This document shows, piece after piece, positions 955 through 61,051 of a DNA stretch of 61,770 bases. Source of the stretch: a virus. Lineage: Duplodnaviria > Caudoviricetes. The DNA lies in the IMG/VR virus record IMGVR_UViG_3300023301_000009, positions 1 to 61,770 of that record; one strand, given 5' to 3'. The position numbers were made by a program, and so were the translations under genes. Position 1 is the first letter of the stretch, and each line of letters opens with the position of its first letter. The notes beneath the pieces are model-generated. The model had not been told where the DNA came from. It searched no databases and worked only from the letters and a program-made list of their open reading frames with translations.

Positions 955-3900
955 TCAGGAATCGCCAAGCACGTTGTACGTCTCAAGCGATAAGCCGTAG
1001 TGCTCTCCAGTACCGCCATTCGCGCTGCTATTTTTCTCGCTGGGGCGATTCACTTCGATGGATGCCGTAATCCTACAGCCACAGAACGGTGGGTTGAAGC
1101 CATTGGGTACGGTGCTGTCGACCATCTGCTGTCCAAACTTGCCTGTGTACAGCACGAACATAAGCTCATGGTCTCCCGGTCCTGTCATCTCCTCGACCGT
1201 TGGAATCATGTCAGCCCAGCTCTCGCCGAAGCTACCCATTTGGTCGATGCCATGCGCAGCTTTGTTCTCCCTCACGTAGCGTAGCTCACTTACGAGGTCG
1301 ATCTCAATACCGCTGTTCTGATTCTGCCGGTCGTTCATTGCGATCTTTGCGCTAGAATCCTGTGCATTGTTGTACGCGTAGTCGAACGGGTCGGCATTGT
1401 ACGTGTCACCCGTCATGCTCATCATGTGCTCGGGAGAATCAAAGTCTGCGCCCGTTAACCGAGTATCGCCATCCAAAAGCGTCTTGGTATACAGGTTTCG
1501 CCCAGCCCCCGCGCTGTTTGCACCCAAGCTATCCGAGATCATCGGGTACAGGTGCCCAAGCTGAGCGTGATTCGGATGCTGCCTGAATGATCCGCCACCA
1601 CTGGCAGAGGGGTGCATAGATTCAAAGTGTAAATATGGCTTGTCCTCCGGTGCATTCGGGGGTTTAGGCATTGGCTTGGCTACGCCCTCCGCGCGGTCGC
1701 GTACAACGAACAGCTCAGTGAGCGACTTCGGCTTGGAGGAGCGCAGTGGGAATGCCATCCCTGAATGCTGACCCCCGCCGGGGCGTGTGTGTAAAACCCT
1801 AAACGAGCAATTCCACAGTAGCTTCTGTGCAAGCCCCATGTGTTGCACGGCCTTGAACGTGTTGATCAAAGGTGCAAACGTCGGGTCACTGCCTGCGCCG
1901 TAGGCGTCTGTGCGCTCCGCGTGCGCCAGCTCAAACATATCATGGTAAACTTCGCTGTAGTGTGCATTTTGCATGGGGCGAAGCGTCGTCTTGTCCACCG
2001 GAATTGAGAACACAAGCGGGTGCAAGTAGCTGGTGCGCTCCCGTAGCCCAGCGGGGTCGATGTTTACCGACGTACCTAGGTCTCCGACAAAGGAGGTATC
2101 TGTGGTCATCTCCGGTCCAGCACCCGGTTTGTTAAGCGCGTTGTTCGGAATGGTCGAACCATCCCAAGCGAACTTGGTTCTAACCAGATCCACAATCCCC
2201 GCCACGGTTGGCGTGCTAATGTGTGCGCGCATAACTGGGAAGGACCAGTCAAAGGACGAGTCTGTATCGTTGCTTCCCCTTCCGTACAGAAAGTAGTCAC
2301 CTGAATCGGAGTCCGTTCCTACAACGTCGCGGTCTGGCCAGTAAGCGTACTCATTCTCGTACCCATCCAGCCGCACCTTGAACAGCGGGTGGAAGTCAAC
2401 ATTGGAATCAAGATCGGCGTCAGCACCGCTATACTGCCTGAACGCAGGAACGAACACGGGACCGGGATACCCTTCAGCAGCAGTCGCCGTTCTGTCTAGG
2501 GGATCTATTGCTGAGACTTCAGGCACGAAAGGGAAGAACCCGTCCGAACCGCTTACTGTAACCTGTGTACTATCGGGCATCTGCATATCGTGCTCGTCAC
2601 CTGTGTCTCCGAACATTGAGTAGTGCGAGCCCATAATTTCACTTGCATCGGCATCATTGTTGCTCGCCTTGAAGTTATCTATGGTGCTTGTGGACTGTGC
2701 ATCAGGGGAAGTCTTATTGCGCAGCGCGCTTGGGTTGTGCACCACCGATGGAATAATTAAAGACCGTTCACCCCACTTGGCGTAAACCGAGTATCGCGTG
2801 GCAGGTCCAGGGTATTCATTGTTGCCAGTCCCTGTACTTTCGTAGGGTCTCGGTGCTTCGATGTGCTCCATGTTTGGGTGGTACCAATGTGTAAAAGGCT
2901 GGTACTTGTCCGCGAAGGGTCTCGATGTGACATCGACGTCACCAACAGTTGCCGTACCACCGTTACCCACAGCATCCGGTGACGTTTCAGTTACCAGCGG
3001 TTCCTCATTAAAATAGAGCAAGTGATCAGTTGTACCCAGCCCCTCAAGGTAATCAAGAAATAGGTCAAGCCCGCTCAAGTTGGACATGGACGCTTCAAGA
3101 GCCGGGTGTTGATGTTTGGGCATTGTAGCCCAATGCACAAGGGGTAGCGGGTCAAACCGAACGTACAAATTTAACGTGTCGACCAGTGCGTTGACCTTGG
3201 TCCCTGCTTCCTCACCGTCTGGACCGGGGTAAAAATCACCAATGTGGTAGCGCAGCCTAAACGTCGTGTTGCGATTCTCCCACACGTCCTTCATGTCAGT
3301 TGGCAGTAGCGCGTAGCGCGACCATGGTCCGTTTTGCTCATCAACCTTAATATCGCTGGTGGCATCCTCGATACTCTTTGAGCCTTTCCCATTGGTGAGC
3401 ACCCCAGCATCGCCTGTGTTATCCCACGTCTCCCCATAGGACTGGAAATTTTCTGGAGAAGCGGCTGCGTCGTTCTGTGCGCCTGTTGCGTCTTGGATAA
3501 GCCCCATCGAGCTTTTGGCTCGCGTAGCGCCGGGGCCGGTAATCGCGTTTGGATCGCCTATCCAGTAATTGAACATATCCATTTCGCCATGCGCACTCGT
3601 CTTGACCGCGAGTTTCCTGAAGTTCAGTGAGTCCCGTGCCATAATAGCTTGGGCCTTACCATCCTCAAACTTTCTACGTGTTGTATCGCTAAATGGGTTG
3701 TTCCCTCCCGTCACCCCAAGGTCATCATTCATGTAGTGTGACCAGCCATCCTCGGAGTCAACCTCGATGAACGTGCCATCCCGGAGGTAGTAGCCACCCG
3801 GCCCTGAAACGAACTCGCCAATGGCTATGTCCTTACCAGTGTCAGTACCTACAAGCGGGTCAATTGCGTGCACTGAGCCTTGCGCTGAAGCCATAGGGTT

Positions 3901-40873: not shown

Positions 40874-41054
40874 CCGCTTCTCCTTACCTGTTTTCCAATT
40901 CAGTGCCCCACTCGCCCCATTGGCTCGTAGTGGCTTCGTACTCGCACACCTGTAGAATTATCTGCTATCAGATTCGTCCTCGGGCATCGTTGCCGTCTTC
41001 AGATGTTTTCTCGTTGCTCAGTACACCCACGCTGAAATTTTGTGGGTGCTCCTT

Positions 41055-41083
41055 AGTATATATAATATTTATGTGTTTGTCAA
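41055..41083 (-). promoter_or_regulatory. strong sigma70-type early promoter P1
   Basis: TTGACA-17 bp-TATACT. Confidence 0.85.
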
Positions 41084-44983: not shown

Positions 44984-45035
44984 CGTCCTTCTCCGCTTGT
45001 GTGAATGTGAGTCTCAATGTCACCAACCATCTCGC

Positions 45036-45332
45036 TCATATTGCGAGGACTTCGTAGGCGGCTGTGCCTTCCTCGCATGTGAGTACCACCTCGACCGAGG
45101 CTCCTGTTCCGCTCCTGCGGCAAAGGTGAATTGCCTCTTTCGCCGTTCCGTTGAGTGCGCCGTGGATCATGTTGAGAATCATCGCAACTTCCGCTTTGTC
45201 ATCGAAGTGTCGTACGGCGTAGGGCGCGAAACTTTCTGGGACGTCGAACATCGTAACCCTGATTCGAGCGTTGACGAAGGACTTGAGAATGGCGAGAGTT
45301 TCATTGTCTGTGATTTTCTTCATTTTGTTCAT
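45036..45332 (-). CDS. early hypothetical protein
   Basis: First gene after promoter P2; leader motif plus SD. Confidence 0.7.
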   Translation of the reverse strand: MNKMKKITDNETLAILKSFVNARIRVTMFDVPESFAPYAVRHFDDKAEVAMILNMIHGALNGTAKEAIHLCRRSGTGASVEVVLTCEEGTAAYEVLAI

Positions 45333-45411
45333 TTTGTTTCCTCGGGCTTGGTTGCCGTCTTAGGTTTTATGGGTGAAGTGCTTACCCGCAATGTTTTTTG
45401 GGGTATGCCTC

Positions 45412-45440
45412 AGTATATATGATTTTTATGTGTTTGTCAA
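45412..45440 (-). promoter_or_regulatory. strong sigma70-type early promoter P2
   Basis: TTGACA-17 bp-TATACT. Confidence 0.85.
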
Positions 45441-45480
45441 GTATAAATGGGGAATAGTGTTCCAACGACTCTCAGTCTGA

Positions 45481-45984
45481 TCAACCCCAAATCATCTCGC
45501 TCACTGCTTTGCCTTCCTTGGACACCACCAGCACATCGTAACCTGCCTCCTTCTCAATCTCGGCAAACCCTGCCTCGACCAATTCGTCATCTCCCGCTGG
45601 GCAAAACCACACTCTCTCACTTCTACTCCTATGAAACTCCCAGAGCCTTTCAGCGGCCCTAGCGCTTAACGCGTTTCCTGCGCTTAGCATCTCCTCGTCA
45701 GTTGCATACTTCTCTTGTGTTCTCAAATACGACATTGCCGTACTCCAGCTAAGCACAAAATACAGCCCCACTTCGCTCCCATCAAACCGCAACTGGTAAC
45801 TACACACATGCGCTGATTGCTCCACTCGGGCAGATTCTTTAAGCAAGTCAAAAATCGCACCCATGCCCTGCGACCCTCTGACTGTACTTATGTTAAACTC
45901 ATTCTCCAGTGCTGATACCACAATATCCTGTGATTGCATTACTACATCAATAAGCGCGAATAATCTTTTCGTATGGTCTTTCAT
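45481..45984 (-). CDS. hypothetical protein
   Basis: 167 aa; leader motif with SD GAGGA. Confidence 0.7.
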   Translation of the reverse strand: MKDHTKRLFALIDVVMQSQDIVVSALENEFNISTVRGSQGMGAIFDLLKESARVEQSAHVCSYQLRFDGSEVGLYFVLSWSTAMSYLRTQEKYATDEEMLSAGNALSARAAERLWEFHRSRSERVWFCPAGDDELVEAGFAEIEKEAGYDVLVVSKEGKAVSEMIWG

Positions 45985-46123
45985 AGTGTCCTCGGGCTTG
46001 TGGCCGTCTTAGGTTTCTGTGCATACCTTACGCGAATGTAAAGCATGATGTTTCAAGGTGTTTGTAAAGAACTATTACGGAGCCGGTTACGGTACTGGCT
46101 CTTCGCTGTGGTGGCAACGCCAA

Positions 46124-46363
46124 TCACTTTACTCTTTTCATTCCTTTGGTTTGAATCTTAATGCTAAGATTCTGGCCAAGCGGTTCAAGACTTAGCTCGC
46201 ACTCCCCAGCCTCCACTGCCTGAAGCACAGCGCCATATAATGTCAGGGCCTTCTTAACTAATTCAGTCGCATCTTTTGAACTCGACTTACGAACTAGTTC
46301 TCCAACCTTGCGCACCATATCGCCGTCAACCGTCACGACAAGCTGGGGGGTATCATCACTCAC
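46124..46363 (-). CDS. ribbon-helix-helix-like DNA-binding protein
   Basis: LVVTVD..MVRKV.EL....DATELVKKALTLY pattern. Confidence 0.5.
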   Translation of the reverse strand: MSDDTPQLVVTVDGDMVRKVGELVRKSSSKDATELVKKALTLYGAVLQAVEAGECELSLEPLGQNLSIKIQTKGMKRVK

Positions 46364-46744
46364 TTACTGTATGTCACCTTGTGTCTGAGCCTCTTCATAG
46401 AACTTAGCAGCACCAGCTCGATCTCGCTCCGCGAAGGCGCGCTGAATTACTTGCTTCTGCGTCATCGTAGCTACGTGGCCCAAATCATTCACTACCTCCA
46501 CCATCTTCATGGAGTTGATGAACTCACCTTCCGCGAGATGATCATTGACTAGGCACCCCATAGCCTCCTCCTCCAGCGCAGCCCGACACATCTCAGCCTC
46601 CATCTTAACTACCTCAGCGACGAACTCTTGCTTTGCTCGCTCGCTCGCTTCTTCAGTCGTTTCTAAACTCACAATCACCAACGTATCTCGCAAACTCATA
46701 ACTACTACTCCAGTCACTACTTGGGTGCGGGGTAGGCCCACCAT
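46364..46744 (-). CDS. hypothetical protein
   Basis: Operon packing. Confidence 0.55.
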   Translation of the reverse strand: MVGLPRTQVVTGVVVMSLRDTLVIVSLETTEEASERAKQEFVAEVVKMEAEMCRAALEEEAMGCLVNDHLAEGEFINSMKMVEVVNDLGHVATMTQKQVIQRAFAERDRAGAAKFYEEAQTQGDIQ

Positions 46745-46761
46745 GGACCTACCCCATTTTA

Positions 46762-47082
46762 TTACTCGGCTACTTTATCCTCTTCGTTCATCTGAGCTTC
46801 CATCTCCTCCGTGCTCATGCCAGTCGCTTTCGGGTTAAGATCCTCCACTACGGTCTGTGTCACCGTCTGAGTTTTTACGCCCAACTCTTTCATCACACGG
46901 ACAACCAAGTACGTGCCTTCCTCATCACATTCTTTGATAAACCGTTCCGCCTCTTTCGATGAATTGCTTTCAAACTCTCGTTCGACGAACACGTACTCTA
47001 CGCGTGCAAAGGGTTCTCCCTCTTCCGCTGCGAACTTGTTATCGACTTCTTTCATTACTGCAACATCTCCGAATCTACTCAT
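46762..47082 (-). CDS. acidic hypothetical protein
   Basis: 106 aa, overlaps the upstream stop. Confidence 0.6.
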   Translation of the reverse strand: MSRFGDVAVMKEVDNKFAAEEGEPFARVEYVFVEREFESNSSKEAERFIKECDEEGTYLVVRVMKELGVKTQTVTQTVVEDLNPKATGMSTEEMEAQMNEEDKVAE

Positions 47083-47287
47083 GCTGGGTATCCTTGGTTT
47101 CGCAGTTTTTCGTCTTCACGACGAACTGCTGTTTATGTAATCCACACCGCAGGATTTTTACCTGTCGGTTTCCTTCACCCTCGGGAGGCGTGTAGCCTGC
47201 CCTTAGATACTTTTCGCGAAGCTCATCGGCTTCCTCAAAATCTTGTGTGTATAACTTTGACCTCCATACCTTGTGTGCCATCGCCAT
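47075..47287 (-). CDS. hypothetical protein
   Basis: SD AGGAG. Confidence 0.6.
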   Translation of the reverse strand: MAMAHKVWRSKLYTQDFEEADELREKYLRAGYTPPEGEGNRQVKILRCGLHKQQFVVKTKNCETKDTQHE

Positions 47288-47317
47288 CTCCTACGCTTGA
47301 GTTACTTGTTACTTGGC

Positions 47318-48682
47318 TCAGTGCATGAGTGATGCAATGATCTCAGCACTGATCATCTCAATCTTGCTCGTATGCGACCGCGCTCCATCATCCCCGTAAA
47401 CGTGTGCGACCTCATGAATCATCACACGTACCAAGTCCACGAAACTTGCGACAACACCGCGCGCTATCTCAATGGAAAAGTCCGCTCCTCGGAATCGCCC
47501 CAACGTGCGCTCGTCGAAGAAATCCACGATATTCACATGCTCCAAAATATCGGCTCCCCAATCCCCGGCTTCGAGGCATGGGTTTATCAGGTCACACACC
47601 TCCCTCAAATTCTCACGCTCGGCTGGAGTAAGATCCTTATGCGAGTACAGCTTCTTCGCTTCCTTCGCGGCTTGTTCCCTTTGCTCTTCAAAGGTTCCTT
47701 TGCGCACCACGATGAGCTCACGCATTGCCTTTGATACAACGACTCCTGTCTTCCCGAAATGCTCCAGCTCCTTTGACTGGCTCATGTTCTCAACGGGTAT
47801 AGCATCTACGCCGTGCTTCTCCTCGAACTGGGCAACCACCTTACTAACCAAGGCTTTGCTATCCTTTAGTGCGTACACCTCGGATACCTCCAACGCGTTT
47901 CCTTCCTCGATCATGCCGAGTATCTCTTCAGTGAAATCTTGGTCGCTAAACTCGAACATCGCCTGCGTCATCCTATTCAGCTCCCATTTAAGATCCCATT
48001 CACTCATCATGTGGCGATCCCGGTTCAACTCCATTCCGCTTAAATCGTAACCGTACCGCATGCTATCCCGTTGCTGCACGAATACACCCTTATGATACAG
48101 CTTCCCCTTGTATCGGTCTTGGAGCAGCACCCTGTTATCTGAATACGCACCCGGCTTGACCGACTGCTTTGGGTCGTAATGCACATCGGTGAACAGGAAC
48201 CTCGTTTGCATCTCCTCCCACTGCTCCTGCTCGACCCCTTCCACAATCACTTGGAATACACCGCGAGACTTCTTCAGCTTCCTCGTTTTCACAGCCAGCA
48301 CATGCGTACCATACGTGTCGGACCACGCGATTTCTGGATACCAAGCCATATCATCATTGTAGACCTTGACCTTGTATCCAGCCATTCTCGACAGCGTGAG
48401 CAACGCCATAGGCAAGCCTTCCCCGAATTGGCCAATCGCATCCTTTCTCTTACGCGAACCCGACGTGCCCATCAGCAGCGCGTTCAGCTCCACCTGCACC
48501 CCAGAATTCTCAACCACCAACACCTTATTGTGCTCGTGATAGACAACTCGCATCGCACCTCTTGCTCGTGAGGCTGATGCTAGTTCTGCGTCTCGTGCGT
48601 TGCTGATAATCTCTCGCACAGCTTCCCACAATCCCCAACTTTCTTGGTAACTCACATCTAAACTTAACTCGAACTTTGCCAT
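47318..48682 (-). CDS. GHKL/HATPase_c-type ATPase with C-terminal HExxH domain
   Basis: REIISNARD, NSG, LLMGTSGS, IGQFGEGL; C-terminal MIHEVAH; start MAKFELSL after SD GAGGAG. Confidence 0.75.
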   Translation of the reverse strand: MAKFELSLDVSYQESWGLWEAVREIISNARDAELASASRARGAMRVVYHEHNKVLVVENSGVQVELNALLMGTSGSRKRKDAIGQFGEGLPMALLTLSRMAGYKVKVYNDDMAWYPEIAWSDTYGTHVLAVKTRKLKKSRGVFQVIVEGVEQEQWEEMQTRFLFTDVHYDPKQSVKPGAYSDNRVLLQDRYKGKLYHKGVFVQQRDSMRYGYDLSGMELNRDRHMMSEWDLKWELNRMTQAMFEFSDQDFTEEILGMIEEGNALEVSEVYALKDSKALVSKVVAQFEEKHGVDAIPVENMSQSKELEHFGKTGVVVSKAMRELIVVRKGTFEEQREQAAKEAKKLYSHKDLTPAERENLREVCDLINPCLEAGDWGADILEHVNIVDFFDERTLGRFRGADFSIEIARGVVASFVDLVRVMIHEVAHVYGDDGARSHTSKIEMISAEIIASLMH

Positions 48683-48752
48683 GCTGCTCTCCTCGGGCGT
48701 AATCGCCGTCTTCAGTTTATTGGCTCTCGCCATTTGTGGGATAATCCCACAG

Positions 48753-48792
48753 GGCTGGGGGAGGAGTCGAACCTTCCCTACACCATCCAGCC
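48753..48792 (-). ncRNA. tRNA-like mini-element 1 (acceptor-like stem plus T-arm, no anticodon arm)
   Basis: GGCTG-GATGGTGTA-GGGAAGG-TTCGACT-CCTCCCC-CAGCC. Confidence 0.55.
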
Positions 48793-48810
48793 AACTAGCA
48801 CACGCTAGAC

Positions 48811-49203
48811 TCACATTGACATATCTTCATCCTGCAACTCGCTGAGCGTTCGGCGGTTTCGCTGTAGCACCGTCACGCCTCGAACCTTCGTCTGCATCTC
48901 TTCATACGCATCGGAATCGGAAGCGACGCGTACATGAGACACCACTGCATCCCTATCGAAGTTCCACGCGTACCTAACCATTGCGTAGGACGTTTCCTCA
49001 TGGGCTGCTGTCGGGTCTACATCGTACACCTCTGCTACTGCGTCTTCTCGCGCACCTATCATCTGCACCATCCCTATCGCTGCAACCATCGCGTCCTCTA
49101 AATCATCAAAAGACACATGCAGTTCCGTGGTGCCTTTGGACGTGTGCACGTAGAACAGGGGCTTGTTCGCATCGTAATCTGACTTACTCGTGAACTTAAT
49201 CAT
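48811..49203 (-). CDS. hypothetical protein
   Basis: Leader motif plus GAGGAAACAAAATG. Confidence 0.7.
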   Translation of the reverse strand: MIKFTSKSDYDANKPLFYVHTSKGTTELHVSFDDLEDAMVAAIGMVQMIGAREDAVAEVYDVDPTAAHEETSYAMVRYAWNFDRDAVVSHVRVASDSDAYEEMQTKVRGVTVLQRNRRTLSELQDEDMSM

Positions 49204-49234
49204 TTTGTTTCCTCGGGCTTTCGCCGTCTTCAGT

Positions 49235-49279
49235 TTACGCCTCGCTACCGGCTAAGGCGGGGTTTACTCTTACTCGCAT
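49235..49279 (-). CDS. possible 14-aa upstream ORF (MRVRVNPALAGSEA)
   Basis: Strong SD GAGGAGAGG; stop lies just before the leader motif. Confidence 0.35.
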   Translation of the reverse strand: MRVRVNPALAGSEA

Positions 49280-49331
49280 ACCTCTCCTCTTATGAGTGAA
49301 GGTCGCCGGATTTTCTCGGGTTGCCCCGAAG

Positions 49332-49376
49332 CCGCTGGAAGGAATCGAACCTTGCCTTGAACACCAGTAGCAGCGG
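49332..49376 (-). ncRNA. tRNA-like mini-element 2
   Basis: CCGCTG-CTACTGGTGTTCAAGG-CAAGG-TTCGATT-CCTTC-CAGCGG. Confidence 0.55.
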
Positions 49377-49382
49377 TGCTGC

Positions 49383-50186
49383 TTAGATGTCTTCTGGTTT
49401 CAGGTGGCGGGGTGAGCTTCCGCCGTACCATTTGTCATGAGCCATCTTCTTCATCCCTTGCACTTGGTCATGTGCCGGAAGGTGTGGAACTCCCGAGCCT
49501 GCCCCAACGATCTTGCGGAGGGTTTGCCATGTGCTTTGGCAAACATGCGCCTTGAGCCGGTGCTCGTCGTAGCGCCAATCGGGCTTTACGATTTTCTTTC
49601 TGGTGAACGTCTGTGAGTTGCCGTTCCCATCCGTCCCCTTGAATCTAATTTTTGAACTCACGTCGCTGGGTTCGACCACTGGGATTCTTGCGAAGGCGAT
49701 TGGAATTTTAGGGTCAACGATTACAACCTCTAAAATGTGAGCCTCGTACAAACCGCTGTATGCTTTCATCCGCTGCTTCCAATCCTTGCGTAGCCACTGG
49801 AGTACGACCCACCTACTGCCAACTAGTAAAGTATGGTCGCTCGCGAGGGTCTTGAGACGTTCCCTGTGGATTCCCGCTTTCACCTTATTGTCTTTGCGAG
49901 TTGCGCTACCTTTCTTGCCGCCCACCTTTCTCGTTGTTGTGGCCGCCATCGCATGTTGTTCATCGGGCGTCAGCATTTGGAACTTGCCCCACAACTCGTC
50001 GTGTTGCTCGGGAGTGATAAGGTTTGACGCCGCGAGCCACTTCAGCGCTTTGTCGTACTTGACTTCTGCTGCGTGAGTAATCTTTGCATCTCGCTCGCTC
50101 TCGGTTTGCCACCCTGTTGTGTGGTCGGAAGGTCCAAAGCAGCTTAGGTCTCTAAGAAGTCCTCGTCCAAAATTGATTTGAGCCAT
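49383..50186 (-). CDS. basic early hypothetical protein
   Basis: 267 aa; first gene after promoter P3; leader motif. Confidence 0.7.
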   Translation of the reverse strand: MAQINFGRGLLRDLSCFGPSDHTTGWQTESERDAKITHAAEVKYDKALKWLAASNLITPEQHDELWGKFQMLTPDEQHAMAATTTRKVGGKKGSATRKDNKVKAGIHRERLKTLASDHTLLVGSRWVVLQWLRKDWKQRMKAYSGLYEAHILEVVIVDPKIPIAFARIPVVEPSDVSSKIRFKGTDGNGNSQTFTRKKIVKPDWRYDEHRLKAHVCQSTWQTLRKIVGAGSGVPHLPAHDQVQGMKKMAHDKWYGGSSPRHLKPEDI

Positions 50187-50272
50187 TTTGTTTCCTCGGG
50201 CTTGATTGCCGTCTTCGGTCTAAGTTAATTACTGGTTGTTCAACACCCGCAGTAAAATTTGGGGTGTGCCTT

Positions 50273-50301
50273 AGTATATATGATGTTTGTGTGTTTGTCA
50301 A
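50273..50301 (-). promoter_or_regulatory. strong sigma70-type early promoter P3
   Basis: TTGACA-17 bp-TATACT. Confidence 0.85.
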
Positions 50302-50329
50302 GTATAAATGAGAGATAGGTGTGCGAGGG

Positions 50330-50518
50330 TTATTTGGTCGTACCTCCGTACTTTGCCTCATCTACTTCTGCGCGGTTCACAGGATACTGTCGCGGAGCTT
50401 TTACCCCAAGCCGCACTTGGCTCCCGCGTAACTCCACGACCATGACCGTTGCTATCTCCTTACCTTGTTCATCCCTGATCACTAGCTCCTCGCCTTCCTT
50501 GCGCGATATCGTAAGCAT
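50330..50518 (-). CDS. csrA: carbon storage regulator CsrA/RsmA homologue
   Basis: MLTISRKEGEELVI..VMVVELRGSQVRLGVKAP..PVNRAEV matches the CsrA consensus; SD GAGGAG. Confidence 0.9.
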   Translation of the reverse strand: MLTISRKEGEELVIRDEQGKEIATVMVVELRGSQVRLGVKAPRQYPVNRAEVDEAKYGGTTK

Positions 50519-50522
50519 CCCT

Positions 50523-51014
50523 TTACTCCTCAATATTCATGTGAGTGAAACCTAAACTCTGAATCTCAAAAACCGGCAGCACTTCGCTGGGGGATATCCG
50601 AACCATGATTCTTGGTGGCTTGTCTATCTCCGCGTACGCCTTCGCAGTGGTGCCCATCACTATCTGCTTGTCGTCCTCGTAGAACCCCTCGTCTTCCATC
50701 ACGTCCTCAACCGGCTTACGCAGGTTTACGATATCCGGCCTGCTTGCAAACCAGATCATGCCTTTCGGATATTTGTATAGCCCTGTTTTCTTATACTTGA
50801 ACTGCATGTATTTCGGCCTTGGATATATCGCTACGATATCAACCCTAAGTGGTACACTCAATGGCTTCGGGGGCCGATGCGGTCGTATGAGCTTTGCAAA
50901 CTTCTTCTCCCAATCACGCATCACCTTTGGCTTGAATGCCCCACCTTTACCAAATCGTACAGATTGCTTTGCCTTTGGCTTAATCGGCCCAACTACGAAT
51001 TCAATGATATCCAT
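50523..51014 (-). CDS. rusA: RusA-like Holliday junction resolvase
   Basis: PKAKQSVR..PLRVDI..YPRPK..RPDIVNLRKPVEDVM..FYEDDKQIV. Confidence 0.8.
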   Translation of the reverse strand: MDIIEFVVGPIKPKAKQSVRFGKGGAFKPKVMRDWEKKFAKLIRPHRPPKPLSVPLRVDIVAIYPRPKYMQFKYKKTGLYKYPKGMIWFASRPDIVNLRKPVEDVMEDEGFYEDDKQIVMGTTAKAYAEIDKPPRIMVRISPSEVLPVFEIQSLGFTHMNIEE

Positions 51015-51015
51015 A

Positions 51016-52563
51016 TCAGTTACCTCGGTCGTACCACGGTCGCTCGGCTAACACTTTTTCTGGCTCATCATCCATTTCAATGACCCCATCTTCGACGTCG
51101 CTATCCTCTAGCGCCTCTCGTTTTTTCTGGTCATCAAAATTCTCATACTCATCTGCGTCATACCTATGGTCCTTACCTGTCTCCGATGGTTTCGTTCCCC
51201 CGCCTTTCCCGTAGCCACCAAATAGCTGGGAAATAATACCATTCCCTTTTGCTTTAATCTCAATCGAATCCTGCGGGTTCAGTATTTCCCGAACTTTTTG
51301 ACAAACATGCACAAACCGGTCTATCTCTTTTGATATATCTGGGTTGACCAGCCCACCCTTAGCCTTCTCCGCTACCAACGCAAACTGCAATCGCTCGTAC
51401 GTCTGCTCGACCACCGCGTTGAGCGCCTTCTCGATACTGAATTTCCCTGCGTGCTCACCCTGTGCCTTTAGCGCAGCTTTCTTAAATGGTATGGAACACG
51501 TCGAGTCCTTTTTGTAGAAGGGACATTTATCTGCGATGTAGCACGTATTGCAATGGTACCCGAACTCGGCCGTCTGGTCCTTCCCTCTTACCTCGGGCCT
51601 TTGGACGGCCTTAATTTCTTTGCGCTCCCCTGCTGCAATCACCGAAGCATCGTTTCGGTGCATCGGGGTTATGACTAGGTTCTGGTACTCAACCCACATT
51701 GACGCGTTGAACTGGTTCACTGCGCCGGAGCTGTCATCCATAAGTGCCGCGTAATCAATACTGTGTTTCTCACACCAGTCTTCATAGTTCGCGCGCACGC
51801 TCTTGTGATCGGGGTCTTTTGTCTTTAGCTCATCACCACTGAATACATACGTCACACCATATTGTGCCCCCATCATCCACGATGTCGAATCAACTGAGTA
51901 GAACGTAAGATTGCGGAACACGTCCTTGTTCGTCATCGCGAACCCGTGAACCTTCCTTCCCGCTTTGTCAGATATCTGTAACATCTCGATGTACTCCGAC
52001 TTCTCCATACCACCTTGTATGCCGATGTACTCATACTTCTCGACCAACTTCGTCCACTCCCTTTTGCGCGTGGTGAGCTGTTCCATTGGGCTGTCATATC
52101 CGTAGTACCCCTCGTAAGACGTGTGGTATACCGGCATGGGAGTTAGTCCCTCCTCCTCCATCAACGCCCGCCACTCCTCAATTTTTTCCACACCTACAAT
52201 GCTGTCAATATCCAGTTCGACGTACACGTCAAAGTAGTGCCCAAACTTTTTAAGCCATGAGATGTATTCTAAAATATACACTTCCGGCTCGACATAACCC
52301 TTTGGCTTCTCCTTCGCTACTGAACTGCCTGCTATATGCTTGCGGTGGAACAGCGACTTGCCGTGAAAACTGAAGTACGTGTGCGCACCAGAATCCAGCA
52401 TCACAAACGCGCCCGCCTCCTTAGCCTTCTCTAAAATCGTGGTCGCCTTCGAGTCGCTCATCTTGCGAAAGTAGAAGTACGAGCACAACAAATTTTCGGC
52501 ACCGACCGACAGTAGCTCGTCCATCGAGCGCTCTTTCTCAGCTCCGGCAAAACAAATTCTCAT
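51016..52563 (-). CDS. TGT/DpdA-like 7-deazaguanine transglycosylase with C-terminal Cys4 domain
   Basis: LLCSYFY, MLDSGAHT, ELDI, MPVYH, IGIQGG, VHGFAMT, YSVDSTSW..GAQYG; then CNTC..CP..C. Confidence 0.75.
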   Translation of the reverse strand: MRICFAGAEKERSMDELLSVGAENLLCSYFYFRKMSDSKATTILEKAKEAGAFVMLDSGAHTYFSFHGKSLFHRKHIAGSSVAKEKPKGYVEPEVYILEYISWLKKFGHYFDVYVELDIDSIVGVEKIEEWRALMEEEGLTPMPVYHTSYEGYYGYDSPMEQLTTRKREWTKLVEKYEYIGIQGGMEKSEYIEMLQISDKAGRKVHGFAMTNKDVFRNLTFYSVDSTSWMMGAQYGVTYVFSGDELKTKDPDHKSVRANYEDWCEKHSIDYAALMDDSSGAVNQFNASMWVEYQNLVITPMHRNDASVIAAGERKEIKAVQRPEVRGKDQTAEFGYHCNTCYIADKCPFYKKDSTCSIPFKKAALKAQGEHAGKFSIEKALNAVVEQTYERLQFALVAEKAKGGLVNPDISKEIDRFVHVCQKVREILNPQDSIEIKAKGNGIISQLFGGYGKGGGTKPSETGKDHRYDADEYENFDDQKKREALEDSDVEDGVIEMDDEPEKVLAERPWYDRGN

Positions 52564-52599
52564 TCCGTGAGTCCTCTTGTGCAGTGTGCGTTAACTTGC

Positions 52600-53598
52600 T
52601 CATTCTATTTCTTGCTTAACACCTTGGGCTTGGGTGTACTCGTGGAATACGCTAGCCATTCGCTGAGCCACCGCAGACTTCTCGTACTTCTCGACACGCT
52701 GTAGTGAATGCGGAGCAAACAGCGCATCCTGTACACATTGTTGAATCTCTTCAATAAGACTTGGGCGGTAGAAAAATTGATCAAGATACTCGTAGTACGG
52801 AGTGCACCCCGGTGCTACCGGATTCGCACCACAAATAACGCCCTCAATTAGCGACACATTTAGTGTGTCAGCCAACCCGCCGGTCACAACTACTTTTGCT
52901 TGGCACAGCAAGTCAGTGAACTCCTTAGCTTTGCAGTATGGCACAACAGCGTACCCGGTCCTGACCAAGTATTTATATACTTCTCCACCAGACGATCGTG
53001 TATCGAGGTCTTGTCCTGTTGAGAATACCACGCGATCCTTAAATGGCCGCAGTGCTTCAGACAAAATCATGGCCTGCTGCTTCTCTGGGGAAAACCTTCC
53101 CGGAACCACGATATACTTCTTCATATATCTAGTGTGATCGGGATAGTCATCCATATCAATGGGGAATCCAGTGACCTTAATAGGTGGCATGTTCTCATAC
53201 GCATCCTGTATCTGCGCTTTATGACTTTCCGTATTCACGGTCATGAAACTCAGCCGAGGCGTCCACTCCGAGAAGTCTATGATGCCACCCGTTGTTGGGG
53301 AATTCATCACCACGTCTATAAACTGTCTTGTTTCAATCCCACCATGGCAATGGGCCGCCGCCGGCTCGTCCCTGATATCCAAAACGTACGGCAGCGCCCA
53401 ATCGTGCTGCCGTTGAAAATACCAAAGGTCACACGGCGGAGCATCTATCACAGCTTGCTTAATCATATTGTATGGCAGTAGCGTAAGGTCGACCTCATGC
53501 ACCTCAATGTTGTTCTCCGCCATCCCCGCTAATACCGCCGCTGAAAACTGCGCAGACCAATCACCTGTACTTTTCTGGCAAACGTAATTCACTTTCAT
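52600..53598 (-). CDS. glycosyltransferase (GT-B, GT4-like)
   Basis: VPGRFSPEKQ..ADTLNVSLIEG..CGA.PVAP...Y.E. Confidence 0.75.
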   Translation of the reverse strand: MKVNYVCQKSTGDWSAQFSAAVLAGMAENNIEVHEVDLTLLPYNMIKQAVIDAPPCDLWYFQRQHDWALPYVLDIRDEPAAAHCHGGIETRQFIDVVMNSPTTGGIIDFSEWTPRLSFMTVNTESHKAQIQDAYENMPPIKVTGFPIDMDDYPDHTRYMKKYIVVPGRFSPEKQQAMILSEALRPFKDRVVFSTGQDLDTRSSGGEVYKYLVRTGYAVVPYCKAKEFTDLLCQAKVVVTGGLADTLNVSLIEGVICGANPVAPGCTPYYEYLDQFFYRPSLIEEIQQCVQDALFAPHSLQRVEKYEKSAVAQRMASVFHEYTQAQGVKQEIE

Positions 53599-58366: not shown

Positions 58367-58612
58367 TTATTTGATAGCCAGCGAGTATATACGCGTAGCG
58401 CCATCGGCTGCTGCTTTTATTCTCGTTCTATACGCACCCAACTCGACGTGCGCGTGTACTTTTCTCGGCCCGCCTGTTGAACTAATCTTAATCCCGATAA
58501 TCAGCTCCTCCCACCCATGGTCCTTTGCCTTTTTCATGTAGGCTTCCAGCTCGGGCACCAGCTCCTCAGTAGTGCATGACACTACTACGTCAATTATCAT
58601 TTCAGGTTTCAT
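58367..58612 (-). CDS. hypothetical protein
   Basis: Coupled to the folE stop. Confidence 0.55.
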   Translation of the reverse strand: MKPEMIIDVVVSCTTEELVPELEAYMKKAKDHGWEELIIGIKISSTGGPRKVHAHVELGAYRTRIKAAADGATRIYSLAIK

Positions 58613-59154
58613 GTATGCTTCCTTTGCGCCATCTGCACAAGCTGGAGGAATTCATTTTTGTCTATGTTCCCTCGAATAGCATGAGTCGTTGTGTTTGAAT
58701 GCGGGTCTTCTACGCCTCGAATTGACATGCATAGGTGCTCGGCTGTCATCACCACGCAAACCCCCAGCGGCTCCAGCTCTTTGAACAGGTGGTCTACAAT
58801 TTGTACGGTCAACCTCTCCTGAATCTGTAAGCGATGTGCGAAGTGCCGAACAACCCTTGGTATCTTCGATAGGCCAATCACCTTCTTACCTGGGATATAC
58901 CCGACGTGTGCGGTCCCAATAAATGGCAAAAGGTGGTGCTCACATAAAGAGTTGAACTGAATGTCTGTCAGCAACACCATTTCATCACAGTGCACGCCAT
59001 CCCTATCAGCGGGAAATGTAGTTAACTCAGGTGGTTCGTCATGTCGGACTAGCTCCTTCCACATACGTGCAACCCTAGCTGGGGTCTCCTTCAACCCCTC
59101 CCGCTCAGGATCTTCGCCAAGCTGTTGGAGCAACGTGTAAATTGTGCTCTCCAT
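58609..59154 (-). CDS. folE: GTP cyclohydrolase I
   Basis: REGLKETPARVA, SLCEHHLLPF.G..H.GYIP, GLSKIPR, RLQIQERLT, EHLCM..RGV. Confidence 0.97.
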   Translation of the reverse strand: MESTIYTLLQQLGEDPEREGLKETPARVARMWKELVRHDEPPELTTFPADRDGVHCDEMVLLTDIQFNSLCEHHLLPFIGTAHVGYIPGKKVIGLSKIPRVVRHFAHRLQIQERLTVQIVDHLFKELEPLGVCVVMTAEHLCMSIRGVEDPHSNTTTHAIRGNIDKNEFLQLVQMAQRKHT

Positions 59155-59919: not shown

Positions 59920-60603
59920 TTAGTCTAGCCCCATCACTTTGTGCATCTGGACCGACACGCGCCATGCGGGATTTTTGCAGATGAATTCGTAACAGTCCGT
60001 ATAATGCTGTGCGAGATTTTCATCGTCAACCGGCTGGACGTACTTATGCTCAGCGAGATGTGCGAAATCTGTGGGGTTGAATAGGGGGAATAGCACCTTA
60101 ACCTCATCGTAGTGTTGGTACACCGGCTGGGAAGGAGGCTTGGGTGATACCGTTACCCAGTCAGGCCGACCCTCTTTCGGCATCTTGTTCGTGCCATTGG
60201 TTTCAATGGACGTGAAGAATCCTGCTGCCTTCAAAGCCTGTACCAATTCGGTATCAACTTGCAGCGTTGGCTCGCCCCCTGTCAGGACAATCATCATGCT
60301 TTCTTTGTTCTCCTCCCCAAAATGCGTATTCCATACCCGTGTTGCCTGCTCCGCGATCTCAGCAGAAGTTTTTTTGCCCCCCTGAGCCGTAATATCACGC
60401 ATGGTAAATTTCGTATCACATATAGCAGCGCAACCGCCTTTCTCTTTGGCGTTCATCCCGCGCGTGGCCTCGTAGCCAGACCATATATTACAGCCTGTGA
60501 ACCGGATAAACACCGCAGCTCTACCGGCGTGAACACCTTCGCCCTGAAGGGTTGCAAATAAATCTACGACTATATACCTCTTAGCTTTTTCTTTACTCAT
60601 CAT
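59920..60603 (-). CDS. queE: 7-carboxy-7-deazaguanine synthase (radical SAM)
   Basis: FATLQGEG.HAGR.AVFIRFTGCN..C...CDT; LTGGEP; IETNGT; WVTVSPK; WRVSVQMHK. Confidence 0.93.
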   Translation of the reverse strand: MMSKEKAKRYIVVDLFATLQGEGVHAGRAAVFIRFTGCNIWSGYEATRGMNAKEKGGCAAICDTKFTMRDITAQGGKKTSAEIAEQATRVWNTHFGEENKESMMIVLTGGEPTLQVDTELVQALKAAGFFTSIETNGTNKMPKEGRPDWVTVSPKPPSQPVYQHYDEVKVLFPLFNPTDFAHLAEHKYVQPVDDENLAQHYTDCYEFICKNPAWRVSVQMHKVMGLD

Positions 60604-61051
60604 CTGTCCTTGCCAGTTGTTCCGGCGTCCACTCAAAATAATCTGCGTAGCAATTCGGAGTTTCGTGAATCCTCACTCGCGTCACCAGCAGTTGCGTTTG
60701 CTCAAGCTGTAGCTTGGCTACTCCAAATAACTCCTTCGCGATATTCTCCGCAGTGGGGTTGCCACTCAGCATTCGGTAGTGCTTCCACTTGTTCCTCTTG
60801 CACAGCTCTATCAACTCTCGGTCTTCGGTGTTGAGTATCACGCCGTGGTCCCAGCACTCGTCAATCCAACCCCCGATCTTCTCCTTGAGAATACTGAAGT
60901 CTATGACACGCCCAAGGCTGTCCAGCCCACTCATGTCTTGTACAAAAATTTCCGCAGCATACCTGTGCCCGTGCAGATTTTTACACTTGCTCTCGTGGCG
61001 CATCACACGATGAGCAGCATCGAACTCGATTCTCCGCATGATCTCAAACAT
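60593..61051 (-). CDS. queD: 6-carboxy-5,6,7,8-tetrahydropterin synthase
   Basis: FDAAHRV..CKNLHGHRY..G.VIDF..WDH..NPTAENIA..ETPNC. Confidence 0.95.
   Translation of the reverse strand: MFEIMRRIEFDAAHRVMRHESKCKNLHGHRYAAEIFVQDMSGLDSLGRVIDFSILKEKIGGWIDECWDHGVILNTEDRELIELCKRNKWKHYRMLSGNPTAENIAKELFGVAKLQLEQTQLLVTRVRIHETPNCYADYFEWTPEQLARTDDE

What the first reader, a model, noticed from the sequence alone, without database searches (positions are those of the whole stretch)
48736..49376. Two anticodon-less tRNA-like mini-elements in consecutive intergenic spaces
Seen: within 20 nt after the stops of two adjacent genes lie 40-45-nt elements. Each has a closing stem (GGCTG/CAGCC; CCGCTG/CAGCGG), a connector containing TGGTGT (D-loop-like GG) and a T-arm with a canonical GG-TTCGAYT-CC loop. 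Closing stem plus T stem total ~11-12 bp, like a tRNA top half. The stems differ in sequence but keep pairing. Each element is followed by a short hairpin (GTGGG-ATTAT-CCCAC; TCGGG-GCAA-CCCGA) and later by the leader motif. There is no anticodon arm and no CCA. Inference: tRNA-elbow mimics serving as RNase P/RNase Z processing signals for the early polycistron, or small decoy RNAs against tRNA-targeting defences.
Basis: partly seen in the sequence, partly recalled or inferred. Interest (0 to 1): 0.72.

Follow-up and report, generated by a model that had tools for sequence, protein, structure and literature searches.

The report
Mini tRNA-like elements between phage genes
Two short RNA structures that copy the top half of a tRNA sit between early genes of this phage; they belong to a widespread phage family I could not find described, and probably mark where host tRNA-trimming enzymes cut the long messenger RNA.

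Summary
Two 40-46 nt elements lie on the coding (minus) strand, E1 at 48753-48792 and E2 at 49331-49376. They start 18 and 6-8 nt after two consecutive stop codons. Each has a 6-bp closing stem, a TGGT-containing connector and a canonical T arm. There is no anticodon arm and no CCA. A hairpin starts 1-2 nt after each element.

They are neither chance nor a one-off. The same architecture recurs in many unrelated viral contigs, often several copies per genome and each with its own closing stem. A covariance model trained only on nine copies from an unrelated 7-kb contig finds E1 and E2 at about 30 bits. It finds nothing of 20 bits or more in 869 kb of other phage DNA. Compensatory changes are massive: 88-92% of cells pair, against 56-61% in shuffles.

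Family members are co-oriented with genes and sit a median 12 nt after a stop codon. Neither Rfam nor my literature searches hold them. In this window they occupy the place that a sigma-70 promoter holds upstream of other genes carrying the same leader.

Best reading, inferred and untested: phage "t-elements" that recruit RNase Z and/or RNase P to cut the early polycistron. A trans-acting mini-RNA is a serious rival. No RNA data and no close relatives were available.

The parts
48753..48792 (-). E1: mini tRNA-like element. 6-bp closing stem, connector with ATGGTGT, and a T arm with loop TTCGACT and one A.C mismatch in the stem.
   Evidence: Sequence. Fold and pair probabilities of 0.94-0.95. 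Model R2, trained only on L177 copies: 29.5 bits, E = 1.2e-4. Model R1: 40.7 bits, but E1 was in R1's training set.
49331..49376 (-). E2: mini tRNA-like element. Closing stem in one of two registers, connector with ACTGGTGT, and a T arm with loop TTCGATT and one mismatch or bulge in the stem.
   Evidence: Sequence. R1: 26.3 bits; E2 was not in R1's training set. R2: 30.1 bits, E = 8e-5. The fold competes with a rival hairpin.
48735..48751 (-). Hairpin starting 1-2 nt after E1 (stem GTGGGA/TCCCAC, extendable by U-A).
   Evidence: (dG -15.3 kcal/mol for the 32-nt flank, which holds this hairpin and a second small one; z = -4.6).
49315..49330 (-). Hairpin starting 1-2 nt after E2 (TTCGGG-GCAA-CCCGAG).
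48795..48808 (-). Small hairpin (CTAGC-GTGT-GCTAG) between the TGA of the 130-aa ORF and E1.
48690..48718 (-). Leader motif with small hairpin and Shine-Dalgarno GAGGA, upstream of the 454-aa gene (ATG at 48680-48682).
49210..49236 (-). Leader motif upstream of the 130-aa gene (ATG at 49201-49203).
50273..50301 (-). Sigma-70-type promoter (TTGACA-17-TATACT, 11 of 12). It heads the unit 267-aa gene / E2 / 130-aa gene / E1 / 454-aa gene. One of three near-identical promoters.
49383..50186 (-). 267-aa ORF of unknown function, whose stop codon precedes E2.
   Evidence: no Pfam or PHROG match.
48811..49203 (-). 130-aa ORF of unknown function, flanked by E2 upstream and E1 downstream.
47318..48682 (-). 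454-aa gene downstream of E1 (phrog_6077; weak HATPase_c-like N-terminus).
   Evidence: Homologues' N-termini coincide with the ATG at 48682.

Best explanation
E1 and E2 are cis-acting RNA elements in the early polycistronic transcript that starts at the promoter at 50301-50273. Each folds into a mimic of the acceptor/T-arm half of a tRNA: a 5-8 bp closing stem stacked on a 5-6 bp T stem, a canonical T loop, and a connector whose UGGU supplies the two D-loop guanines that lock a tRNA elbow.

Host tRNA-end-processing enzymes recognise this shape and cut the transcript at the element's edges. RNase Z (or another 3' maturase) would cut just after the discriminator-like base. RNase P would or could also cut at the 5' edge. 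The cut frees a downstream mRNA that begins with a stable hairpin followed by the conserved leader and Shine-Dalgarno. The three promoter-initiated units have the same layout. The cut also leaves the upstream mRNA ending at, or capped by, the tRNA-like fold a few bases after its stop codon.

Shown here: the structure, its conservation, its family and its placement. Inferred: that it is cleaved, by which enzyme, and the effect on mRNA stability or translation.
For: (1) Architecture at the stated places.

(2) The family is real.
- A pattern demanding only TGGTGT plus the T arm hit 28 IMG/VR stretches. Only 3 lie in ARAGORN tRNAs.
- Those loci hold further copies, found without demanding TGGTGT or a closing stem.
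- Among 40 distinct non-tRNA T-arm sites, 15 have a short-range Watson-Crick closing helix with shuffle p <= 0.05 (binomial 4e-10). The figure is 1 of 47 for true tRNA/tmRNA T arms and 1 of 12 in background loci.

(3) Cross-validation. One 6,997-bp contig (L177) carries 10-11 copies on one strand. Nine have different 6-8 bp closing stems. Model R2, built only from those nine, scores E2 at 30.1 bits and E1 at 29.5 bits. In 869,262 bases of other phage loci, which include real tRNA arrays, it gives one partial hit of 19.5 bits.

(4) Covariation.
- Alignment A8 (29 sequences): 88.3% of cells paired, against 61.1% in shuffles (0 of 500) and 40-53% when slid. All 7 closing pairs change on both sides.
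- Alignment A9 (46 distinct sequences from 60 of 80 IMG/VR loci): 91.7% against 56.0%; covariation score 0.771 against 0.139.

(5) D-loop-like motif. TGG[TA] is in the connector in 7 of 10 copies not picked through TGGTGT, where 1.7 are expected. TGGT sits right after the closing stem in most rows of A8, by my reading.

(6) Placement, over 68 distinct elements with flanks.
- Flanking ORFs lie mostly on the same strand in 61.
- Median distance from the upstream stop codon is 12 nt; 38 of 67 are within 20 nt.
- A hairpin starts within 5 nt after the element in 29.
- In L177 each T loop lies 47-59 nt before the next ATG.

(7) Window context. Three near-identical promoters are each followed by a 5' hairpin and then the leader motif. 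The 130-aa and 454-aa genes have the leader but no promoter, and have E2 or E1 plus a hairpin instead.

(8) Precedent. Plant mitochondrial t-elements were found with the same GGTTCRANYCC motif, and mRNA ends map to their edges (PMC1920247, passages read).
Against: - No transcript ends were seen. The only public run holding this DNA is a DNA run.
- No close relative exists for an orthologous comparison.
- 0 of 63 loci around distant homologues (23-38% identity) of the 454-aa gene hold an element.
- E2's tRNA-like fold is 8 kcal/mol worse than a rival fold, and its closing stem has about 0 predicted probability.
- Both window copies have an imperfect T stem, whereas most relatives are perfect.
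- Stack length is 11-14 bp across the family, not a strict 12.
- Many elements start 0-6 nt after, or even overlap, the upstream stop codon. An RNase P cut there would leave a nearly stop-less mRNA.
- One contig carries a gene-free tandem array of six copies. That looks more like a gene for a small RNA than like punctuation.
- A hairpin directly after the discriminator might hinder rather than help a 3' nuclease.
- The covariation alignments were fitted to the model's structure, and the hits were selected by score.
Confidence: 0.5

Rival explanations
1. The functional product is the excised ~42-nt mini-RNA itself. RNase P and Z release it, and CCA may then be added. It acts in trans as a sponge or decoy for something that recognises the tRNA elbow or acceptor end: a host enzyme, a ribosome site, or a defence toxin that attacks tRNA acceptor ends. 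Its position between genes is just a convenient way to express it.
For: L278 holds six near-identical copies in tandem. They are separated by 150-200 nt A/C-rich spacers without convincing ORFs, like a tRNA gene array. Conservation of UGGU and the T loop is stronger than a bare cleavage signal should need. Many phages carry several copies. The YrlA tRNA-like module shows that bacterial and phage RNAs with tRNA-like domains are cleaved by RNase P and receive CCA (PMC4201824, passages read).
Against: Closing stems differ freely between copies, even within one genome. The RNA therefore cannot mimic a particular tRNA's acceptor identity. There is no anticodon loop, which (from recall) is the target of most known tRNA-directed defence nucleases. 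A few copies embedded in mRNAs are unlikely to titrate a catalytic toxin against the whole tRNA pool (inference). The tight link to stop codons and downstream start sites is not explained.
Confidence: 0.25
2. A cis element that works without being cut. It would be a folded 3' cap right after the stop codon that blocks 3' exonucleases, or a device that modulates termination-reinitiation or ribosome loading on the next gene, for example by contacting ribosomal sites that bind tRNA elbows.
For: The median distance to the upstream stop codon is 12 nt, and some elements overlap the stop. The T-loop-to-ATG distance is nearly constant at 47-59 nt in L177. A strong Shine-Dalgarno follows closely in many copies.
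Against: A plain hairpin would suffice as an exonuclease block, and one is already present next to many elements. That leaves the conserved T loop and UGGU unexplained. The distance to the next start codon varies widely across the family: 89 and 146 nt from the T loop in the window, and a median of 47 nt from the element's end elsewhere. I know of no precedent for elbow mimics in bacterial translational coupling (recall).
Confidence: 0.12
3. Functionless remnants of tRNA genes: internally deleted phage tRNA pseudogenes, or 3' tRNA fragments of the kind carried in attP/att sites.
For: tRNA gene fragments are common near integrated elements (PMC9897764, passages read). 13 of the 28 first pattern hits were indeed 3' parts of tRNAs at prophage ends with no local closing stem. 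One relative (L004, first copy) can alternatively be drawn as a degenerate full-length tRNA with a D arm. That hints at an origin from tRNA genes.
Against: Compensatory changes keep the closing stem in dozens of copies. The architecture and the UGGU recur in unrelated phages. There is a strand bias of 61:7 and a fixed placement after stop codons. No integrase is found in the 61.8 kb held. The T-stem mismatches mean E1 and E2 cannot be exact copies of a working host tRNA.
Confidence: 0.05
4. Chance resemblance: two T-loop-like strings that happen to lie in intergenic DNA.
For: Single-sequence folding z-scores are not significant. Per-element shuffle p-values for the closing stems are only 0.018 for E2 and 0.052 for E1.
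Confidence: 0.01

Closest known systems
t-elements of plant mitochondria (PMC1920247; abstract and passages read)
   Same: They are non-canonical tRNA-like structures embedded in mRNA precursors. They are recognisable by the GGTTCRANYCC T-arm motif. They sit at the ends of coding regions, sometimes so close that the stop codon is lost. Mapped mRNA 5' and 3' ends coincide with their edges, and cleavage is attributed to RNase P and RNase Z. The excised element can receive non-encoded C/A.
   Different: t-elements are organellar and about 70 nt long, with remnants of a cloverleaf. They are few per genome and are not a sequence family with a fixed connector. The phage elements are 40-46 nt with no anticodon or D stem. 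They have a conserved UGGU and occur in arrays of up to 10-11 per 7 kb. No ends have been mapped for them.
mascRNA/menRNA tRNA-like modules of MALAT1/NEAT1 (Rfam RF01684)
   Same: It is the only Rfam model with even a faint match to E2 (15.1 bits, E = 5.8). From recall, it is a tRNA-like fold inside a long transcript whose RNase P/Z excision creates the ends of the flanking RNA.
   Different: The score is far below the gathering score of 42.5. mascRNA is mammalian and has a full cloverleaf with a small anticodon-like arm. There is no homology.
YrlA (bacterial and phage Y RNA) tRNA-like domain (PMC4201824; passages read)
   Same: It is a bacterial/phage RNA module with a T arm, D-loop features and an acceptor-like stem but no decoding function. 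The paper shows it is an RNase P and CCA-adding substrate.
   Different: YrlA is about 100 nt, has a D stem and a Ro60-binding helix, and is encoded next to rsr. Here there is no Rfam match and no TROVE/Ro60 gene in the record. The elements sit in intercistronic positions.
tRNA punctuation of animal mitochondrial transcripts; tRNA-mRNA co-transcripts in bacteria (recalled, no paper read)
   Same: tRNA-shaped units between cistrons serve as cut sites for RNase P and Z.
   Different: Those units are working tRNAs. These cannot decode.
Minihelix model substrates of RNase P, RNase Z and the CCA-adding enzyme (recalled); RNase P as a molecular ruler clamping acceptor end and elbow (PMC4919913, start of the abstract in the listing only)
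   Same: A coaxial acceptor and T stack with a T loop is the part of tRNA these enzymes measure.
   Different: Those are laboratory constructs. Stack length here ranges from 11 to 14 bp.
tRNA gene fragments at phage/ICE attachment sites (PMC9897764; passages read)
   Same: They are partial tRNA sequences in phage DNA that contain the T arm and the 3' acceptor strand.
   Different: att fragments copy a host tRNA exactly, lack their own 5' pairing strand, occur once, and lie beside an integrase. None of that holds here.

Membership tests
tRNA (ARAGORN; Rfam RF00005) | Cloverleaf with an anticodon arm and a D arm, detectable by tRNA finders | tested here: not met
   ARAGORN finds 0 genes in the window. 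No tRNA-model match even at E <= 10 over 48600-49500. Only 10-16 nt lie between the closing stem and the T stem.
tRNA (ARAGORN; Rfam RF00005) | T arm with G53, T54-T55-C56-R57-A58 and C61 | tested here: met
   GGTTCGACTCC and GGTTCGATTCC. Each 5-bp T stem has one non-pair.
New phage mini tRNA-like element family (defined here by models R1 and R2) | A 5-8 bp closing stem directly flanks a [A/C]UGGU-containing connector of about 8-17 nt plus a T arm. A model not trained on the sequence detects it. | tested here: met
   R2, trained on L177 only: E2 30.1 bits, E1 29.5 bits. Background: 0 hits of 20 bits or more in 869,262 bases. R1, which did not contain E2: 26.3 bits.
New phage mini tRNA-like element family (defined here by models R1 and R2) | Closing stem kept by compensatory change | tested here: met
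   All 7 closing pairs change on both sides; 88-92% of cells are paired, against 56-61% in shuffles and 39-53% when slid.
New phage mini tRNA-like element family (defined here by models R1 and R2) | Same strand as the flanking genes, just downstream of a stop codon | tested here: met
   E1 lies 18 nt and E2 6-8 nt after a stop codon. Family: 61 of 68 co-oriented, median 12 nt.
t-elements (plant mitochondria) | A tRNA-like fold with the GGTTCRANYCC motif inside an mRNA precursor | tested here: met
   Definition taken from PMC1920247.
t-elements (plant mitochondria) | mRNA 5'/3' termini coincide with the element's edges (RNase P/Z cleavage) | not testable with these tools
   No RNA run holds the sequence.
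t-elements (plant mitochondria) | Encoded in a plant mitochondrial genome, derived from its tRNA genes | tested here: not met
   The window is a viral contig with tail sheath, portal, terminase and bacterial-type promoters. The likeness is functional, not membership.
mascRNA-menRNA (RF01684) | Score at or above Rfam's gathering score of 42.5 bits | tested here: not met
   15.1 bits, E = 5.8, for E2 only.
YrlA / bacterial Y RNA | Ro60 (TROVE) gene nearby, and a Ro-binding stem plus D arm in the RNA | tested here: not met
   No TROVE match in the record. No Rfam match. The record is only about 50% complete.
attP/att tRNA fragment | Single copy next to an integrase, with no 5' partner strand of its own | tested here: not met
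   No Phage_integrase match in 61.8 kb. There are two copies, each with a local closing stem.
tmRNA tRNA-like domain | Part of a tmRNA gene with a tag reading frame | tested here: not met
   ARAGORN finds no tmRNA in the window.

The most novel reading that the evidence does not exclude
Phages of many lineages encode a hitherto unnamed class of anticodon-less 'mini-tRNAs' of about 42 nt. Each has an acceptor-like stem, a UGGU elbow lock and a T arm. Host RNase P and Z excise them from early transcripts or from dedicated tandem arrays, and CCA may then be added. They would act in trans as sponges or decoys for factors that read the tRNA elbow or acceptor end, such as defence toxins that modify or cut tRNA 3' ends, or host tRNA-processing and quality-control enzymes. 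Their excision would at the same time punctuate the phage mRNAs.
Probability: 0.2. Interest if true: 0.9.

Novelty: new variant of a known kind. Interest (0 to 1): 0.8.

Why it matters
If these elements are cut by RNase P or Z, phages use a compact, portable version of the tRNA-punctuation logic known from mitochondria. That would explain how some phages turn long early transcripts into separately stabilised and translated mRNAs without a promoter per gene.

The family seems common. It is absent from Rfam 15. I did not find it in eight full-text searches.

It gives a defined 42-nt natural substrate for studying how tRNA-processing enzymes recognise the elbow. It offers a new annotation feature for phage genomes and a possible design part for synthetic operons. 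If the excised RNA acts in trans, it would be a new kind of phage small RNA.

Tried and rejected
- **Leader motif as a handle for relatives.** The 16-mer hit 72 IMG/VR stretches, one match each. None shares blastn similarity with the window, so these are chance hits. I used them as background DNA.
- **Relatives of this phage.**
  - blastn of 47300-50200 against 50,697 phage records: no match.
  - Single-protein locus searches with the 454-aa and 267-aa proteins in IMG/VR: none.
  - Metagenome scan: only a 100%-identical contig, L103, which is not independent.
- **Distant homologues of the 454-aa protein.**
  - 48 proteins were found, aligned, and gave 63 IMG/VR loci.
  - R1 found only 8 weak matches of 21.3 bits or less there, in or near tRNA arrays.
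  - My T-arm scan found no non-tRNA site with a closing stem. The element is not tied to that gene.
- **Cultured-phage relatives of family members.** L134, L013, L028 and L177 gave no match.
- **Expression.** No RNA holder is listed for 45000-53000; there is only one DNA run, possibly the source.
- **First statistics.**
  - My first closing-stem shuffle test allowed G-U pairs and was uninformative in T-rich flanks. I replaced it with a Watson-Crick-only test.
  - A first stack-score scan did not separate the elements from a slid control, because real tRNAs were included.
- **Alignments.** MAFFT alignments A1-A3 and the R1-based A5 put the closing stems in mixed registers. Helix 1 was only 59% paired, though still above the controls. 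R2 on the L177 copies fixed this.
- **Terminator reading.** The hairpins after E1 and E2 are followed by A-rich runs, not T runs. No minus-strand terminator-like site is reported between 45440 and 50273.
- **L177 ORFs.** No PHROG match, and one sub-threshold Pfam match. That L177 is viral is therefore only an inference from its gene layout.
- **Enzymes encoded by this phage.** No integrase, Ro60 or CCA-adding-enzyme family was found in the record. The record is about 50% complete.
- **Supplements.** Supplementary files of the papers were not opened. The supplementary figures of PMC4201824 and PMC1920247 might show structures closer to these elements than I could judge.
Full report
**1. What is at the coordinates**

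The window is a 61,770-bp IMG/VR viral contig, judged about 50% complete. All long ORFs lie on the minus strand. It encodes a tail sheath, tape measure, portal, large terminase and major head protein. It also encodes RusA, a CsrA-like protein, and a DpdA-like transglycosylase with QueE and GTP cyclohydrolase.

Read on the minus strand, the 267-aa ORF ends with TAA at 49385-49383. E2 starts 6-8 nt later and runs to 49331. The 130-aa ORF ends with TGA at 48813-48811. After a small hairpin comes E1, at 48792-48753.

Each element has three parts: a 6-bp closing stem, a connector containing TGGTGT, and a T arm whose loop and closing G-C pairs are canonical. GGTTCGANTCC occurs only at these two places in the window. 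Shuffles expect 0.12 matches, and 1 of 100 shuffles reaches 2.

Each T stem carries one non-pair. Neither element has room for an anticodon or D stem, and neither is followed by CCA. A stable hairpin starts 1-2 nt after each element. The exact 16-mer of the leader motif follows further on.

ARAGORN finds no tRNA or tmRNA in the window. Rfam finds nothing at gathering thresholds. At E <= 10 it gives only a 15.1-bit match of E2 to the mascRNA model, whose gathering score is 42.5.

**2. Is it more than chance?**

Thermodynamics alone does not say so. The folding z-scores are +0.18 and -0.40. E1's closing stem is predicted with probability 0.94-0.95 in an 86-nt context. E2's loses to a rival hairpin that uses the same 5' strand: -27.7 kcal/mol, against -19.6 when the tRNA-like pairs are enforced.

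The decisive evidence comes from other genomes. A pattern demanding only TGGTGT, a 2-12 nt gap and the T arm hit 28 IMG/VR stretches.
- Three lie in ARAGORN-called tRNAs.
- Thirteen are 3' tRNA parts at prophage ends, with no local partner strand.
- The rest show the same design as E1 and E2, with a 5-9 bp helix closing directly around connector and T arm.

The loci fetched through one such hit contain further copies. My T-arm scan found these without asking for TGGTGT or for a closing stem. One contig (L013) has three copies with closing stems GAGCCA/TGGCTC, GGATAG/CTATCC and TACTGGA/TCCAGTA. L004 has three copies. L025, L028, L011 and L027 have two each, and L030 three to five.

I counted every distinct T-arm-like site.

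| Set of sites | Closing helix with shuffle p <= 0.05 |
|---|---|
| Non-tRNA sites in the window and family loci | 15 of 40 (binomial P = 4e-10) |
| T arms of ARAGORN tRNAs/tmRNAs | 1 of 47 |
| Sites in 72 unrelated background loci | 1 of 12 |

**3. Independent cross-validation and covariation**

A scan of one genome per prokaryotic species gave 67 stretches. Most were chance matches in coding DNA or real tRNAs.

One of them, L177, is a 6,997-bp contig binned with a Lachnospiraceae MAG. It carries 10 T arms on one strand, plus an eleventh copy cut by the contig end. Nine have a different 6-8 bp Watson-Crick closing stem. Each T loop lies 47-59 nt upstream of the next Shine-Dalgarno and ATG.

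I built a covariance model, R2, from those nine copies only.
- It finds E2 at 30.1 bits (E = 8e-5) and E1 at 29.5 bits (E = 1.2e-4), together with the IMG/VR members.
- In 869,262 bases of 100 other phage loci, which include real tRNA arrays, it gives a single partial match of 19.5 bits.

The resulting alignments show strong covariation.

| Alignment | Cells paired | Shuffled | Slid controls | Covariation score |
|---|---|---|---|---|
| A8, 29 sequences | 88.3% | 61.1% (0 of 500 reach it) | 40-53% | 0.606 against 0.150 |
| A9, 46 distinct sequences | 91.7% | 56.0% | 39-50% | 0.771 against 0.139 |

In A8 all seven closing-stem pairs show changes on both sides. Of the 80 loci handed over, 60 hold at least one R2 match at E <= 0.001: 71 matches in all, 46 of them distinct.

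Two caveats apply. These alignments are fitted to the model, and the hits were selected by a score that rewards pairing.

Outside the T arm, the most conserved feature is [A/C]TGGT immediately after the closing stem. In the ten copies not selected through TGGTGT, TGG[TA] occurs in seven, where 1.7 are expected. The combined stack of closing stem and T stem is 11-14 bp. That is close to, but not fixed at, the 12 bp of a tRNA.

Rfam has no match to the L177 copies even at E <= 1.

**4. Anatomy and placement across the family**

I examined 68 distinct elements that have at least 300 nt on both sides.
- In 61, the flanking ORFs lie mostly on the element's strand.
- The median distance from the stop codon of the upstream same-strand ORF is 12 nt, and 38 of 67 lie within 20 nt. 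Some elements overlap the stop codon.
- In 29, a hairpin of -4 kcal/mol or better starts within 5 nt after the element.
- A Shine-Dalgarno plus start codon was found within 150 nt in 39, at a median of 47 nt.

One contig (L278) is different. It has six near-identical copies in tandem, separated by 150-200 nt A/C-rich spacers without convincing ORFs.

**5. Context in this window**

Three near-identical sigma-70-type promoters (TTGACA-17-TATACT, 11 of 12 matches) lie at 41083-41055, 45440-45412 and 50301-50273. Each is followed by three things. First, a hairpin that begins within a few bases of the expected start site. Then the leader motif, which is a small hairpin plus GAGGA. Then an ATG.

The leader occurs six times, allowing up to 3 mismatches. 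The copies in front of the 130-aa and 454-aa genes are the two exact ones, and they have no promoter. Instead E2 or E1 plus a hairpin stands there.

So the unit reads: promoter / 267-aa gene / E2 / 130-aa gene / E1 / 454-aa gene. The elements stand exactly where a new 5' end would be needed to give the downstream genes the same hairpin-then-leader 5' region as the promoter-initiated mRNAs.

A cut right after the base that follows the closing stem would leave the hairpin at the very 5' end. That a 5'-terminal stem-loop protects bacterial mRNAs is established knowledge, which I recall rather than tested.

**6. Mechanism**

The best-supported reading is that E1 and E2 are phage counterparts of t-elements. 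They would be tRNA top-half mimics that borrow the host's tRNA-maturation nucleases to punctuate a polycistronic transcript.

The parts these enzymes are known to read are present and conserved: the coaxial acceptor/T stack, the T loop, and the two guanines that lock it (recalled; compare the abstract of PMC4919913 in the listing).

The absence of CCA, and the hairpin directly downstream, make a cut on the 3' side (RNase Z type) the most attractive step. An RNase P cut on the 5' side is also possible. It would leave the upstream mRNA ending a few bases after its stop codon. In plant mitochondria exactly this happens, sometimes even upstream of the stop codon (PMC1920247).

Structure, conservation and placement are shown. 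Cleavage and its consequences are inferred. I put 0.5 on this reading.

The main rival (0.25) is that the excised mini-RNA is itself the product. The tandem array in L278, and conservation stronger than a bare cut site needs, speak for it. The free variation of the closing stems, and the tie to stop and start codons, speak against a specific decoy.

An uncut cis role in stability or translational coupling gets 0.12. Dead tRNA remnants get 0.05. Chance gets 0.01.

**7. What could not be done**

- No public RNA run holds the region.
- No close relative of this phage is in the phage, IMG/VR or metagenome collections. Conservation at the orthologous positions is therefore untested.
- Loci around 63 distant homologues of the 454-aa gene contain no element. 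The element is thus not tied to that gene.
- The record holds no integrase, Ro60 or CCA-adding-enzyme gene, but it is incomplete.

**8. Comparison with what is known, and novelty**

The closest known kind in function is the plant-mitochondrial t-element. Related ideas are mitochondrial tRNA punctuation, the mascRNA module of MALAT1, herpesviral tRNA-like/pre-miRNA units (recalled) and the tRNA-like module of bacterial and phage Y RNAs.

Membership in each of these is excluded by a tested defining feature; see the membership table.

Eight full-text searches turned up no description of anticodon-less tRNA-like elements between phage genes. The library lacks most subscription journals, and I did not open supplements.

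I therefore rate this as a new variant of a known kind. The principle of tRNA-shaped processing signals is known. This compact, multi-copy phage family with its UGGU connector appears to be undescribed.

Noticed in passing
window 41055-41083, 45412-45440, 50273-50301 (minus strand): Three near-identical sigma-70-type promoters (TTGACAAACAC...TATACT). Each is followed by a hairpin of the CACCC...GGGTG type and then the leader motif. They look like the early promoters of this phage and point to a bacterial host.
   Followed up: partly
window 40977-41005, 45339-45367, about 45990-46016, 48690-48718, 49210-49236, 50193-50221 (minus strand): A six-copy leader motif: AAAC..AAGACGGC, a 3-4 bp hairpin, then GCCCGAGGA and an ATG 6-9 nt later. 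A CsrA-like gene lies in the same region (50330-50533). The GGA-containing leader could be its target. Not tested.
   Followed up: partly
window 49235-49279 (minus strand): A 14-codon mini-ORF with a strong Shine-Dalgarno lies between E2's hairpin and the leader of the 130-aa gene. Its TAA overlaps the first bases of the leader motif. It may be a leader peptide.
   Followed up: no
window 51016-52563, 58609-59154, 59920-60636 (minus strand): DpdA-like transglycosylase (phrog_887), GTP cyclohydrolase and QueE-like genes. This is the gene set for 7-deazaguanine modification of phage DNA.
   Followed up: no
window 47318-48682 (minus strand): The 454-aa protein downstream of E1 has a weak HATPase_c-like N-terminus and a C-terminal HExxH-like motif (HEVAH). 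It has 48 metagenomic homologues, some tagged PF25856, and occurs in many large viral contigs, up to 440 kb. Its function is unknown.
   Followed up: partly
L177:1-6997 (minus strand), a contig of a Lachnospiraceae MAG: 10-11 mini tRNA-like elements in 7 kb, one in front of almost every gene. None of the ten ORFs tested has a PHROG match, and Pfam gives only one sub-threshold match.
   Followed up: yes
L278: about 1080-1900 (minus strand), an IMG/VR contig of 41,837 bp: A tandem array of six near-identical mini-elements (closing stem GCGAGCC/GGCTCGC). They are separated by A/C-rich low-complexity spacers with no convincing ORFs.
   Followed up: partly
L004:4602-4673 (minus strand): The copy most like E1 can also be drawn as a degenerate 72-nt tRNA with a D arm (GTAG-GGTAGAA-CTAC) and a poor anticodon arm. 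ARAGORN does not call it. It hints that the family arose from tRNA genes by internal deletion.
   Followed up: no
L104, L118, L124 (records G002, G001, G004): Large viral contigs that carry mini-elements also encode tmRNA genes and ordinary tRNAs (ARAGORN). In G002 a mini-element lies about 760 nt from the tmRNA gene.
   Followed up: no
L134:3350-3394 and L151:5227-5271 (Synechococcus single-cell assemblies); L168:499-543 (Methanobrevibacter MAG): Clear family members occur in contigs assigned to a cyanobacterium and to a methanogen. They may be phage or virus DNA in those assemblies. If the archaeal assignment holds, the family's host range extends beyond bacteria.
   Followed up: no
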